A stretch of DNA of 64,000 nucleotides from Escherichia coli (GTDB lineage Bacteria > Pseudomonadota > Gammaproteobacteria > Enterobacterales > Enterobacteriaceae). The position numbers are program-made. The stretch's first letter is position 1, and every line of letters starts with the position of its first letter. The stretch is taken from the NCBI RefSeq assembly GCF_003018115.1, contig NZ_CP027457.1; one strand, written 5' to 3'. Below, in pieces: positions 50,801 through 53,800 of the stretch.

Positions 50801-53800
50801 CGCTTTAAAAGAACGCGCCATAGTGAAGAGTTGCGAAGGCATGCTTACCACAACATTTGCGGTGATATCTGACATTTCATTGCTCCAGACGAATGATATG
50901 ATGCAACCATGATGTGATTGCATACCGAAATGGTACTATTGAGTATTTATCCAGTAGGTTACGATGCCATTCCACCCAACTGGTGAGGCATCAAGGATGT
51001 ACAGCAAATACGACGAGGCGCAGTTTCACTTGAGACTTCCGCATGAACTCCACGCGAAAATTAAGCAGCGTGCGAAGATGAATAACAGGTCGCTGAACTC
51101 AGAGATAATTGCAGCGATTGAAGAATCATTGGCTAAACAAAGCTCTGCACCAGTTTACATTGACGATGCAGAGCGTATGGCAGAACAACAATCCGATATA
51201 GTTAAGAAAATGGTTTTTGAAACGCTTAAGACCATGTATAGCAATAATAAAAAGGAAACATAGAAATCTAGTTTCCGACTAAAATGGCATTGCCTTCATG
51301 ATATCCTGTGAAAAACTAAGGAGAGTTAACCATATGAAAAAATCACTGTTAATTATCCCACTTCTGCTGGTTGGATGCGCAAAAGTAAGTGACTATCAAG
51401 CAAGTTGCGAACAACGCTATCAAAAGCTTAGCGATATGGCTAATTGCCTTGATGCCAGTGTGAAGAACGACTCACGCATGGCATCAGCACCAACACCTAA
51501 GCTGTATGTCCTTGCTGCAAAGGTGCTCGGGCAAGGTGTCGATGAAGGAAAGATAAGTGACGCACAGGCAAGACTTGAGCTTCAGAATCTTTATGTTCAA
51601 TTACAAAGCCAAGAACAAGCCCAACAAATAGCACAAAGCCAAGCATTCCAGCAGGCTTTATTGAATTATCAGGCTGTAAACACAATGCAAGCGATCGAGC
51701 AAAAAGCGCGCCAGCCTGTTATAACTCAACCTTACCCAACACGCGTTGACACATATACAAACTGCAATTCAGGATTTGGAAACACGGTAACATGCAACAG
51801 TAGCAGTAACATCAGATAACAATCAGCAAAGGTATCGCCTATGCAGAGGAATACGATAAACCTCGCGTTCTACATATTTGGTTTTTGCACGTTCCTGGTG
51901 TTTGAAAGGCTATTCTGACAACGAATCAGACTTAGCACCCTGCGTCAGTGCATTAATCGCTTTTTGCGCTTGCTGCATGGCTTTCTCAAACGCTGTCGAT
52001 CCGCGTGGGGTGTTTGCCATTCGGAGCATTGCATTTCTGAATGGCTCGCTCTCATAGGCGCGAGTAAGAAGTCCGTAGCTTACTGCTGCGCCAGTTGTCG
52101 CCGGGTTCATTGCCGTACCATACCCAATAATGAACGGGATAGTTTGCTGCCCTGTTGGTGTTGTTACTGCCGCTTTTGCAGCCTGCTGCGTGGATTGCAG
52201 ATAGTTTTTTAATCCTTTCAGATAAGCAGCGTCCTGCCCCTTAAATGTGATGCCAGTATGGTTTTGCAGGATGTTAAGCTGCCGAAGGAACTGGTCAGGG
52301 GATCCGCCAGATTTCTCCATCGCCTTTCCAATGATGCCATTGCGCATTTGCGCCCTGCCAACACGACCAACTGAGTTATACAGCGTCTTAATTTCCGATT
52401 TGTTCTTGCTGAATAGCATGTTGTTGACAACTTCCGGCGTCAGGTCGCCTTTCATGAGAACATTCTTCAGCCTGGTATTCTTTAGTTTCGCCGCTTCGTC
52501 AGCGTAGACGGCATTGGCCTGCTGATATTTACGGAGAGTATCGTTGCCAAGATTCTGACCAATGGCACCATTGATATCGTCTGTCATTGCCTTGTAAACG
52601 CGCTGAATGGCAGCATCGGAACGGTTTGGTAACACTGGTCGTTCCCCCTTCACGTCCATTCTGAACTGGCTGCGCAGATCGCTTAATTGCTTCAAATCCA
52701 GATTTACCGGACCATCAGGACCAGCATTGCGAACAAGCTCATCACGATAGGACTGAAGTTTTGAAATAGTCTCGTTATCGGCGACCTTACCAAGCTTCTG
52801 CAGGTTAGATATTTCTGTATCAATCTGCTGAATTGCTCGAGCAGGCTGGATATTGACTCCCGCCATTGCATTCTGAACCTGCTCAAGACGGTTCCCTGCA
52901 GCACGACGAATTCCTGATGTTTTCGCTTTAAGGCTGTCAATAACAACAGCTGGATCATACTCACCGAATTTATCAGCAAATCTCTGCACCAACTGGCTTC
53001 TCGCTTCCTGTTGCGTTGCTCTCATTCCGCTTGTGCCAGCCAGAGGGATATTTTCTGCTGTAGTCTGCGCCATTTTTCCGACGCGGGAAGTTGGTTGTAA
53101 CAGGTCTGTGGTGTGCAGAGGAACTCCTTCACGCTCTGCAAATCTGATAGCCTGCTGCGCTTCTGGCGCAATAGCACCGCGAACACCACGATAAGCAGCA
53201 CCTAATCCACGTCCGGCAGCGTTAATAGCACCTCCAGCCAGCACACCAACGCCTAAATCGGTAGCGAGTGCTTCCGCATCATCTTTCGCACTATTTGCAG
53301 CAAGTGATCCAACTGCGTTTTCTGCTAGAAGGCGAGTTGCCCCCTGAGCAATTCGACCAGCAAGTGTTGGTGCCTGTACCGCCGCTCTCTCAACGCCAGC
53401 AGGAGTGAGGTAAGGCAATGCTTCAGCAAATACCCTTCCCTCTGTCGTTTGTGGAGTCAGCGCACCTTGCTGAAGGCCAAAGTCCTGCTCTAATCCCTGC
53501 GTTGTTACTCGTGGTGCTGGTTGATATGTACCATCGCCAATGCCGAGTTTACCGCCAGCCCAAGCCGCCGCGCTTGTTACAGCATCGGCAACTGATGCAG
53601 GTATGTTTGCCACGTTCACGCCAGCCTGCACCAGTCCACGACCAGTCTCTTTTACTGCTTCACCAAGATCAGACATAAATCCACTTTGCTGTGGTTGTTG
53701 CTGTGCTACTGGTTGTTGTGTCTCCACTGGCTGCACAGATGGCAATGGATAGGCAGCATAGAAAGCTTGCTTAGCCTGCTCTGCATTTTCTCCGGCTTGC

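What the first reader, a model, noticed from the sequence alone, without database searches (positions are those of the whole stretch)
50964..51819. Mnt-like repressor followed by a co-oriented lipoprotein gene, with no arc/ant partner
In P22 the immI region has mnt divergent from arc-ant. Here an Mnt-like ribbon-helix-helix gene (50997..51263) is followed 70 bp downstream, on the same strand, by a lipoprotein gene (51334..51819; lipobox LLVGC, Gln-rich middle region), and I see no arc or antirepressor ORF. The lipoprotein looks like lysogeny-expressed cargo, for example a superinfection-exclusion or outer-membrane-modifying factor, possibly under Mnt-type control.
Basis: partly seen in the sequence, partly recalled or inferred. 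Interest (0 to 1): 0.5.

Follow-up and report, generated by a model that had tools for sequence, protein, structure and literature searches.

The report
Prophage lipoprotein in P22 sieA slot
A P22-like E. coli prophage carries an uncharacterised outer-membrane lipoprotein gene at the spot, and behind the same promoter core, where phage P22 keeps its anti-superinfection gene sieA; this makes it a plausible but untested phage-exclusion factor in an already described variable region.

Summary
There is an 88-aa Mnt-type repressor gene (50997-51263), a 70-bp gap, then a co-oriented 161-aa lipoprotein gene (51334-51819). No arc, ant or sieA homologue occurs anywhere in the window.

The region is the known, highly variable "ant moron" between gene 16 and the tailspike gene of P22-like prophages. 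An E. coli B7A prophage holding a 96.9%-identical copy of this stretch was among those compared in 2008.

The lipoprotein is not a partner of Mnt. It occurs with full immI, with mnt alone, with ant alone, or with none of them.

In some sibling prophages its ORF precisely replaces the sieA ORF behind P22's PsieA region. The window keeps the core of that region, a 25-nt extended -10 plus Shine-Dalgarno module. In other prophages this module precedes at least 12 unrelated cargo ORFs, most with a signal peptide or membrane segment; SieA is the only one with a known function.

A 97%-identical homologue in prophage Gally of E. coli LF82 is transcribed in the lysogen while the late genes stay silent.

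The family has no Pfam entry and no fold match. It is under strong purifying selection, and remote relatives often sit next to genes for ejected virion proteins.

Exclusion at the envelope is the best-supported reading, but it is untested.

The parts
48851..50875 (-). Tailspike gene (P22 gene 9 homologue). The open frame runs to 50923, but the true start is 50875.
   Evidence: Pfam Head_binding 2e-67. The start is set by RefSeq annotation of a 98.8%-identical relative.
50922..50936 (.). Position-equivalent of the P22 mnt operator (ATACCGAAATGGTAC). Only 4 of 7 arm positions are symmetric.
   Evidence: Alignment with the P22, Sf101 and Gally mnt upstream regions. The flanking CTATTGAG is conserved in all four.
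50939..50965 (+). Pmnt-like promoter, TTGAGT-15 nt-TACGAT. The spacer is 2 bp shorter than in P22 and Gally.
   Evidence: Alignment to the annotated P22 Pmnt. Function not shown.
50997..51263 (+). mnt-type ribbon-helix-helix repressor gene, 88 aa.
   Evidence: Pfam Arc plus Repressor_Mnt. 47% identical to P22 Mnt. Intact in about 45 related loci.
51227..51864 (.). Presence/absence cassette relative to mnt-only prophages. It holds the last ~12 mnt codons, the promoter module, the lipoprotein ORF and 45 bp downstream.
   Evidence: blastn breakpoints against NZ_CP169309, IME10 and Sf101.
51295..51323 (+). Conserved expression 'socket', TTCATGATATCCTGTGAAAAACTAAGGAG. It comprises an extended -10 (TG at 51299-51300, TATCCT at 51302-51307), a 5' leader and a Shine-Dalgarno sequence (AAGGAG, 51318-51323).
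   Evidence: The same element lies upstream of P22 sieA. It is unique in the window, with 0 matches expected by chance. It is conserved across 88 distinct sequences that have at least 8 unrelated upstream contexts.
51334..51819 (+). Lipoprotein gene, 161 aa (signal peptide residues 1-14, lipid-modified Cys15 at 51376-51378). The AF2 model has a helical N-domain (~18-100, confident), a Gln-rich helix (to ~125) and a C-terminal hairpin (138-158, low confidence). Conserved Cys residues: 25, 38, 144, 154.
   Evidence: phrog_6067, unknown function, 1e-109. Lipobox. AF2 model. Conservation. dN/dS about 0.05.
51910..53907 (-). Gene 16-type ejection (DNA transfer) protein gene, convergent with the lipoprotein gene.
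   Evidence: phrog_770, 3e-239. 33% identical to P22 gp16.

Best explanation
**Anatomy (shown).** This is the immI/'ant moron' segment of a P22-like (Lederbergvirus-type) prophage. It lies between the gene-16 ejection-protein gene and the tailspike gene, and is transcribed against the late operon. arc and ant are absent. mnt remains, with the position-equivalents of its operator and promoter.

The lipoprotein gene is a separate, swappable cargo. It occupies the sieA position, behind the core of P22's PsieA region (extended -10, TGnTATCCT, plus leader and Shine-Dalgarno sequence). In other P22-like prophages this same module precedes SieA types A and B and at least 10 further unrelated ORF families; most of these have a signal peptide or membrane segment.

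**Inferred.**
- The gene is transcribed in the lysogen from that promoter core, probably with added read-through from Pmnt in this prophage.
- The product is exported and lipid-modified at Cys15. Because residue +2 is Ala, the Lol rule sends it to the inner face of the outer membrane.
- The periplasmic part would be a disulfide-stabilised helical domain (Cys25-Cys38), a Gln-rich helical stalk and a Cys144-Cys154 hairpin.

**Most likely function (inferred, about 0.4-0.45).** Exclusion of incoming phages at the envelope. The protein would interfere with the trans-periplasmic conduit built by ejected proteins, or with an outer-membrane entry step. That would complement SieA, which acts at the inner membrane.

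Mnt is not its dedicated regulator. Mnt most likely autoregulates and damps a decayed Pant-like promoter facing the tailspike gene.
For: **Position.** In about 95 loci the gene always lies between the tailspike gene and gene 16, convergent with gene 16, and never together with P22-type sieA.

**Precise ORF swap.** In L083, L090, L057 and L032, 96-97% identity to P22 runs through the mnt terminator and the PsieA region, to 4 nt before the sieA start codon. The lipoprotein ORF then follows. Those 85 bp plus sieA in single copy give at least 1e7-fold exclusion of P22 (PMC10883804).

**Socket.** The motif is found once in the window, with 0 expected by chance. All lie in the same slot. Conservation begins only about 11 nt upstream of the extended -10.

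**Expression.** The Gally homologue LF82_138 reads 70 against a prophage median of 15.6 in LB, second only to the C2 repressor. It rises in macrophages (log2FC 2.55, q 4.7e-27) while gene 16 stays at background.

**Cassette behaviour.** It is present or absent among similar prophages.

**Protein.** The lipobox is invariant. Both Cys pairs are conserved down to 27-40% identity. dN/dS is about 0.05.

**Link to ejected proteins beyond P22-like phages.** The remote homologue P0103 sits on the opposite strand among internal-virion-protein and tail-fibre genes. P0255 abuts, convergently, a 3215-aa ddrB-ParB polyvalent protein gene. P0259 lies near a 3771-aa polyvalent protein gene.
Against: - No experiment links any member of the family to phage exclusion.
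- There is no sequence or fold similarity to SieA, Cor, Llp, Bor or any PADLOC defence protein.
- dN/dS far below 1 is not the signature of an arms-race protein.
- The lipoprotein gene matches 189 places in 185 E. coli genomes, so up to four genomes carry two copies. If these are two lipoprotein-bearing prophages in one cell, exclusion among them is not absolute.
- Strong induction in macrophages and other non-LB conditions fits a host-interaction role equally well.
- The Gally copy has a different upstream region: homology starts 17 nt before the ATG. Its RNA-seq therefore does not test the window's promoter.
- One sampled remote relative (P0111) is in an ordinary chromosomal neighbourhood.
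- Outer-membrane sorting and the disulfides follow from rules and conservation, not from measurement.
Confidence: 0.45

Rival explanations
1. Host-fitness or virulence lipoprotein. In this reading it is a lysogenic-conversion factor of the Bor/Iss/TraT kind. It would change envelope properties such as serum, bile, antimicrobial-peptide or macrophage survival, rather than phage entry.
For: The Gally homologue rises from log2 about 6.1 in LB to 10.3 in the MB1 samples and 8.6 in the MB6 samples (macrophages, 6 h). The gene is found in pathogenic lineages, including O104:H4, B7A and LF82. Outer-membrane lipoprotein morons with such roles are known, for example lambda Bor (cited in PMC7067206).
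Against: There is no similarity to the Bor, Iss or TraT families (PHROG and Pfam scans). The gene is tied to one slot next to ejection-protein genes in phages of many genera, including plant and insect-associated hosts (Pectobacterium, Xenorhabdus). The only characterised gene of the slot is anti-phage. The neighbouring mnt, tailspike and gene 14 rise together in macrophages, so the induction may be regional rather than specific to this gene.
Confidence: 0.2
2. One reading: mnt and the lipoprotein gene form one operon, and the lipoprotein is cargo under Mnt-type control.
For: The two genes are co-oriented and 70 bp apart. Only a weak hairpin lies between them (51254-51276) and it has no U-tract; the scan finds no terminator. 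The same mnt-then-lipoprotein order recurs in Providencia at 55% protein identity. It is the commonest architecture in the survey (about 43 of 95 loci).
Against: The lipoprotein gene carries its own conserved extended -10/Shine-Dalgarno module. It occurs without mnt, or separated from it by an opposite-strand gene. mnt occurs without it. In P22-type versions a terminator and PsieA separate mnt from the slot. In Gally in LB, mnt is at background while the lipoprotein gene is at 4.5x background. The adjacency follows from geometry, because mnt is the immI gene that borders the sieA slot.
Confidence: 0.15
3. The transcript matters as much as the protein. A prophage-expressed RNA running antisense to the late operon (mnt, lipoprotein gene, and on into the 3' end of gene 16) would interfere with late transcripts of superinfecting relatives, or would tune tailspike dosage. 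The model is the antisense RNA STnc6030 of BTP1, which arises from the same slot.
For: In BTP1 a ~786-nt antisense RNA from this slot gives immunity to BTP1 (PMC7067206). No convincing terminator lies between the lipoprotein stop codon and gene 16. In Morganella and Yersinia the two stop codons are 9-17 bp apart. The region has been proposed to modulate read-through into the tailspike gene (PMC2629481).
Against: Strong purifying selection on the protein, the invariant lipobox and the conserved cysteines show that the protein itself is selected. Antisense action would be an addition, not an alternative.
Confidence: 0.1
4. A lytic-cycle role. The protein would be made during infection to protect progeny or the infected cell, for example by blocking re-adsorption or ejection into lysing cells, as T5 Llp does. 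Alternatively it could be a lysis accessory.
For: It is an envelope lipoprotein encoded inside the virion gene block. T5 Llp is a precedent (my own knowledge, not checked here).
Against: The gene is transcribed against the late operon, from the slot of a prophage-expressed gene. In LF82 it is expressed while the late genes are silent. The window holds only the virion genes from portal to tailspike, so the lysis genes were not seen; in P22-type genomes they lie in a separate cassette elsewhere (own knowledge).
Confidence: 0.08

Closest known systems
P22 SieA (superinfection exclusion A)
   Same: Same genomic slot, between mnt/orf59a and the 3' end of gene 16. Same orientation and same promoter-leader-Shine-Dalgarno module. 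In some prophages the lipoprotein ORF replaces the sieA ORF exactly. Both are small envelope proteins expressed from the prophage.
   Different: No sequence similarity: tblastn and PHROG scans are negative. [quoted passage not shown] This protein is a lipobox lipoprotein predicted to reach the outer membrane, with a soluble periplasmic body. Its activity is untested.
The 'ant moron' / immI region of P22-like phages (Villafane, Casjens et al. 2008, PMC2629481)
   Same: This is that region: variable gene content between genes 16 and 9. Variants with mnt plus one gene of unknown function are described (ST64T, ST104). The E. coli B7A prophage, which holds a 96.9%-identical copy of this stretch, was among the genomes drawn.
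   Different: That paper describes gene content only. It does not identify the lipoprotein, the ORF swap with sieA or the shared promoter module.
Cor (phi80/N15/HK022) and Llp (T5) outer-membrane lipoproteins that block FhuA
   Same: They are small phage-encoded outer-membrane lipoproteins that act from the periplasmic side against phage entry. This is a functional analogy, drawn from my own knowledge.
   Different: No PHROG, Pfam or fold match to them. P22-like phages use O-antigen rather than FhuA. No receptor is known for this protein.
Ltp of Streptococcus phage TP-J34
   Same: A prophage lipoprotein that blocks DNA injection by binding a protein ejected from the virion, the tape measure protein (cited in PMC10883804). 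This is the closest mechanistic model for a lipoprotein that targets ejection proteins.
   Different: Gram-positive host, unrelated fold; no PDB match.
STnc6030 antisense RNA of prophage BTP1
   Same: A prophage-expressed transcript from the same slot and in the same orientation that confers immunity (PMC7067206).
   Different: It acts as RNA. Here a conserved protein is encoded.

Membership tests
Mnt repressor (P22 immI) | N-terminal Arc-like ribbon-helix-helix DNA-binding domain | tested here: met
   Pfam Arc PF03869, 8.7e-15, residues 7-49.
Mnt repressor (P22 immI) | C-terminal Mnt tetramerisation helix | tested here: met
   Pfam Repressor_Mnt PF11423, 2.5e-11, residues 57-81. DAERMAEQQSDIVKKMVFETLK aligns with P22 DAERLADEQSELVKKMVFDTLK.
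Mnt repressor (P22 immI) | Divergent from arc-ant, repressing Pant through a symmetric operator | tested here: not met
   No arc or ant in the window. The operator-equivalent 50922-50936 is only 4/7 symmetric, and the Pant-equivalent hexamers are weak. DNA binding could not be tested.
Bacterial lipoprotein (Lgt/LspA substrate) | Basic n-region, hydrophobic h-region and a lipobox [LVI][ASTVI][GAS]C | tested here: met
   MKK-SLLIIPLL-LVG-C15 matches the PS51257 pattern. G14 and C15 are invariant in 28 homologues, and C15 is invariant down to 27% identity.
Bacterial lipoprotein (Lgt/LspA substrate) | Acylation, and outer-membrane sorting (no Asp at +2) | not testable with these tools
   Residue +2 is Ala and +3 is Lys. 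The Lol rule (own knowledge) predicts the outer membrane. No biochemical data.
Moron (autonomously expressed prophage cargo) | Present or absent among otherwise collinear relatives | tested here: met
   The prophage in NZ_CP169309 is similar (96.5% identity, 83% coverage) and lacks it. Breakpoints are at 51226/51231 and 51865.
Moron (autonomously expressed prophage cargo) | Own promoter | tested here: inconclusive
   A conserved extended -10 module is shared with P22 PsieA. No transcription start has been mapped for this prophage.
Moron (autonomously expressed prophage cargo) | Expressed in the lysogen while lytic genes are silent | tested here: met
   Met for a homologue, not for this prophage. 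LF82_138 (97% aa identity) is at 4.5x the prophage median in LB, while gene 16 is at background (PMC9928086 S1/S4). Its promoter region differs from the window's.
SieA family | Sequence homology to SieA types A, B or C | tested here: not met
   The PHROG scan gives only phrog_6067. tblastn with P22 SieA is negative.
SieA family | Polytopic inner-membrane protein | tested here: not met
   There is one N-terminal signal peptide and no other hydrophobic segment. The AF2 model is a soluble helical body.
SieA family | Blocks DNA injection by P22-like phages | not testable with these tools
   Needs plating and K+ efflux assays.
Cor/Llp-type receptor-blocking lipoproteins | Sequence or fold relationship | tested here: not met
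   No PHROG hit other than phrog_6067. No BFVD or PDB fold match.
Known anti-phage defence systems (PADLOC) | Match to any PADLOC model | tested here: not met
   No hit at E <= 1 for either protein.

The most novel reading that the evidence does not exclude
The lipoprotein founds a new class of superinfection-exclusion proteins. It would be anchored in the outer membrane and act in the periplasm, stopping the ejection-protein conduit of podophages before it reaches the inner membrane. The ~40-bp PsieA core would be a portable expression socket that, together with the conserved gene-16 end, turns this slot into an exchange point for a dozen or more uncharacterised envelope-acting anti-phage genes. 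The wider unnamed lipoprotein superfamily has 236 clusters at 50% identity and no Pfam entry. Its frequent position beside genes for injected virion proteins would then mark similar factors in unrelated phages.
Probability: 0.35. Interest if true: 0.6.

Novelty: new member of a known kind. Interest (0 to 1): 0.4.

Why it matters
Only one injection-blocking exclusion system, SieA, has been studied for short-tailed phages. Two thirds of sequenced P22-like phages lack it (PMC10883804). This gene fills the sieA position in 3.4% of complete E. coli genomes (185 of 5426), including O104:H4, B7A and LF82, and in at least twelve genera of Enterobacterales.

If it excludes phages, it would explain resistance of such lysogens to P22-like phages. 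It would also provide a periplasmic handle on how the ejection-protein conduit is built. The socket motif would then be a simple way to list further candidates. If it acts instead on the host's envelope during infection of animals, it is a new lysogenic-conversion factor. Either outcome can be settled with a single cloned gene.

Tried and rejected
**Family and structure searches**
- Pfam, NCBIfam and PADLOC scans of the lipoprotein gave nothing. The one NCBIfam hit (T2SS_GspK, 18.8 bits against a cutoff of 130) is a Gln-rich artefact, and it explains a stray 'GspK' name in one database record.
- A PDB sequence profile search found nothing.
- The afdb50 library was unavailable.

**Sequence features**
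- A heptad scan of the Gln-rich helix gave only a weak register (10/15), so I make no coiled-coil claim.
- Rfam found no match in 50500-52200.
- The consensus promoter/terminator scan found no terminator between mnt and the lipoprotein gene, or after it, and only marginal -35/-10 pairs.
- The Mnt operator could not be defined by comparison. Prophages that carry ant next to the lipoprotein gene have a third Mnt type (34% identity) and unrelated upstream DNA.

**Literature and other checks**
- Searches by accession or PHROG number found no paper. No paper on this lipoprotein turned up.
- Association with a particular gene-16 type is rejected: 97-99%-identical lipoproteins sit next to both gp16 types.
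- A test for depletion of double lysogens was not feasible, because the tools do not give per-genome cross-tabulation.
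Full report
**What is in the sequence.** Window 47.7-64 kb is the virion-gene end of a P22-like prophage.
- The last prophage gene is an Acyl_transf_3 acyltransferase (47692-48756, minus strand). It lies next to ybhB and the bio operon in a relative with a similar prophage at the same site.
- The tailspike gene follows (48851-50875, minus strand; Head_binding 2e-67). Its real start is 50875, judged from RefSeq annotation of a 98.8%-identical relative.
- On the plus strand come an 88-aa gene (50997-51263) and a 161-aa gene (51334-51819).
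- On the minus strand come the homologues of P22 ejection-protein genes 16, 20 and 7.

**The two genes.** The 88-aa protein matches Pfam Arc (8.7e-15) and the Mnt tetramerisation helix (2.5e-11), and is 47% identical to P22 Mnt. The 161-aa protein starts MKKSLLIIPLLLVG|C, which fits the lipoprotein signal rule, and residues 84-127 are 34% glutamine. No Arc, Ant, Bro-N, SieA or orf59a homologue is found in the window.

**Comparison with P22.** In P22 the order is 16, then sieA, orf59a and mnt on the opposite strand, then arc, ant and gene 9. The record annotates a terminator after orf59a and a promoter in front of sieA. In the window's orientation, mnt and the lipoprotein gene therefore occupy the places of mnt and sieA.

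Villafane, Casjens and co-workers described this segment in 2008 as the 'ant moron'. They found ten types in sixteen genomes, including versions holding only mnt plus one gene of unknown function. The E. coli B7A prophage was among the genomes they drew (PMC2629481). B7A matches window 50900-51900 at 96.9% identity over the full length. So 'Mnt without arc/ant, followed by an unknown gene' is an already described state of a known variable region.

**The lipoprotein is independent of Mnt.** I surveyed 80 IMG/VR loci plus phage and genome loci.
- The lipoprotein gene always lies between the tailspike gene and gene 16, convergent with gene 16.
- Its upstream neighbours vary: mnt alone (about 43 loci); ant with or without arc, plus mnt (about 10); complete ant-arc-mnt-orf59a (5); mnt-orf59a (9); mnt plus an opposite-strand gene (about 11); nothing (5; Morganella, Yersinia ruckeri and one IMG/VR locus); or a Bro-N antirepressor (3, Serratia).
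- It is never found together with P22-type sieA.
- A prophage at the same chromosomal site, 96.5% identical over 83% of a 25-kb query, has mnt but no lipoprotein gene. Homology breaks at 51226-51231, inside the last codons of mnt, and resumes at 51865.
- mnt of this type is in 261 of 5426 complete E. coli genomes, the lipoprotein gene in 185, and the two together as here in 105.

**The sieA socket.** In L083, L090, L057 and L032, 96-97% identity to P22 runs through arc, mnt, orf59a, the mnt terminator and the annotated sieA promoter. It stops 4 nt before the sieA start codon, and the lipoprotein ORF follows. Leavitt et al. showed that 85 bp upstream of sieA, plus sieA in single copy, exclude P22 by at least 1e7 (PMC10883804). 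That stretch is therefore a working prophage promoter.

The window keeps its proximal 29 nt, TTCATGATATCCTGTGAAAAACTAAGGAG (51295-51323). This contains an extended -10 (TGnTATCCT), a leader and a Shine-Dalgarno sequence. A 25-nt pattern for it occurs once in the window, with none expected by chance.

The ORF that follows was the lipoprotein in 30 cases, SieA type A in 6, a 212-aa SieA-like protein (matching Leavitt's type B, which has an N-terminal extension) in 1, and at least ten other unrelated ORF families in about 75. These others are 62-149 aa. Most begin with a signal peptide or membrane segment; one 140-aa family has neither. They have either a PHROG of unknown function or none, and no credible Pfam match. 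All sit in the same slot. Across 88 distinct sequences, conservation starts only about 11 nt upstream of the extended -10, in front of at least eight unrelated upstream contexts.

I read this as a portable promoter-leader module. Together with the conserved 3' end of gene 16, it lets cargo ORFs be exchanged by recombination. That reading is an inference.

**Expression.** Phage Gally of E. coli LF82 carries a 97%-identical protein, GALLYPH_13 = LF82_138.
- In the LF82 RNA-seq its normalised level in stationary LB is 70, against a prophage median of 15.6. It is second only to the C2 repressor (727), and just under the authors' five-fold cutoff of 78, which is why they reported Gally as having no morons.
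- Gene 16 next door stays at background in all conditions.
- In macrophages at 6 h the gene is up (log2FC 2.55, q 4.7e-27) (PMC9928086 S1 and S4).
- mnt is at background in LB. A mnt deletion did not change survival in macrophages.

Caveat: in Gally an opposite-strand gene separates mnt from the lipoprotein gene, and homology to the window starts only 17 nt before the ATG. The data show that the gene is lysogen-expressed cargo, but they do not test the window's own promoter. In the window no terminator separates mnt from the lipoprotein gene, so read-through from Pmnt is possible.

**The protein.**
- Close relatives form about 100 clusters at 90% identity, all in Enterobacterales: Escherichia, Salmonella phage, Citrobacter, Serratia, Cronobacter, Klebsiella aerogenes, Pectobacterium, Yersinia, Morganella, Providencia, Proteus phage, Pantoea, Xenorhabdus and Tatumella. 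None has an informative name.
- dN/dS is about 0.05.
- AlphaFold gives a confident helical N-domain (residues ~18-100, pLDDT 83-90), a long Gln-rich helix to ~125, and a low-confidence C-terminal hairpin.
- No Pfam, NCBIfam, PADLOC, PDB or BFVD relative was found.
- An exhaustive HMM search of 1.84 billion representatives found 236 clusters at E <= 0.001. Most are 125-140-aa lipoproteins that share the N-domain.
- Across these, Cys15, Gln22, Cys25, Glu26, Cys38 and Tyr58 are invariant, and Cys144, Gly149 and Cys154 are nearly so. This argues for two periplasmic disulfides, which is an inference.
- Sampled contexts of remote members: one lies among internal-virion-protein and tail-fibre genes of a non-P22-like phage, on the opposite strand. 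One abuts a 3215-aa ddrB-ParB polyvalent protein gene, convergently. One lies near a 3771-aa polyvalent protein gene and a terminase gene. One is in an ordinary chromosomal neighbourhood. The repeated position next to genes for ejected virion proteins is suggestive, but rests on few cases.

**Mnt.** The mnt upstream region aligns with those of P22 and Gally.
- The operator position holds ATACCGAAATGGTAC (50922-50936), which is much less symmetric than P22's GGTCCACCGTGGACC.
- The residues at the positions of P22's DNA-contacting β-strand differ (QFHLR against HFNFR).
- The Pmnt-like promoter has a 15-nt spacer.
- The Pant-equivalent facing the tailspike gene is weak.
- All mnt copies surveyed are intact.

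The most economical reading is an immI remnant that autoregulates and damps residual transcription toward the tailspike gene. This is inferred, not shown.

**Verdict.** The region is a known kind, and the link to Mnt is positional. The useful result is that the lipoprotein is the commonest alternative to sieA in a shared expression socket. It is lysogen-expressed in a close homologue and has no known relatives. Envelope-level phage exclusion is the best-supported function (about 0.4-0.45). A host-fitness role (about 0.2) is the main rival. Smaller rivals are Mnt-operon control, an antisense-RNA effect like BTP1 STnc6030 (PMC7067206), and a lytic-cycle role.

Noticed in passing
L014 5464-5883 (Gally gene 14; also in 720R6, L002 3464-3883): The opposite-strand gene that separates mnt from the lipoprotein gene in Gally and 720R6 is itself a lipoprotein (MKRIIGVVAGAILLSGC...). 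It is the most strongly macrophage-induced gene of Gally: LF82_139, log2 about 5.5 in LB and 11.0 in the MB1 samples.
   Followed up: partly
IMG/VR loci L096-L174 (socket scan): The motif TATCCTGNNNAAAACTAAGGAG precedes at least 12 unrelated small ORF families in the gene-16/tailspike slot of P22-like prophages. Examples are phrog_2651 (129 aa, secreted), phrog_5962 and phrog_8100 (109 aa, membrane segment plus coiled coil), phrog_7294 (75 aa, two membrane segments) and phrog_21338 (62 aa). All except SieA have unknown function.
   Followed up: partly
L214 5024-5178 (BTP1, between gene 16 and tailspike): The 'empty' BTP1 slot, inside the region of the immunity-conferring antisense RNA STnc6030, holds a TATAAT, a GGAGG and a 23-codon hydrophobic ORF (MERDLLNFVFLIFGLVVGKLLFA). 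This is below the 60-aa limit the authors used to call the RNA non-coding.
   Followed up: no
window 50901-50923 and 50939-50965: An inverted repeat, ATGCAACCA / TGATTGCAT, lies between the tailspike start and the operator-equivalent. The Pmnt-like promoter has a 15-nt spacer, 2 nt shorter than in P22 and Gally, in both this prophage and Sf101.
   Followed up: partly
window 47692-48756 (-): An Acyl_transf_3 O-antigen-acetyltransferase-like gene (35% GC) is the last prophage gene before ybhB (46570-47139) and the bio operon. It is a second likely lysogenic-conversion gene at this end of the prophage.
   Followed up: no
L011 about 5690-5990 (Serratia, upstream of the lipoprotein gene): There is a perfect 16-bp palindrome, TTGCAAAATTTTGCAA, a second TTTGCAAA and a duplicated CTTGTCAAC between the Bro-N antirepressor gene and the lipoprotein gene. 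These look like operators of an unknown regulator.
   Followed up: no
L221 and L222 (remote superfamily members P0259, P0255): Small lipoproteins with the same N-domain lie beside giant (3215-3771 aa) ddrB-ParB/ART-PolyVal 'polyvalent' protein genes of phage-like elements. In L222 the two genes are convergent and abutting.
   Followed up: partly
E. coli genome search: The lipoprotein gene matches 189 places in 185 complete E. coli genomes, with at most two per genome, so up to four genomes carry two copies. I did not check whether these are two separate P22-like prophages.
   Followed up: no
P0091 (167 aa, E. coli, named 'recombinase'): The first ~40 residues are the lipoprotein's upstream frame and signal peptide, fused to an ERF-type recombinase fragment. 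This is probably a recombination or assembly chimera.
   Followed up: no
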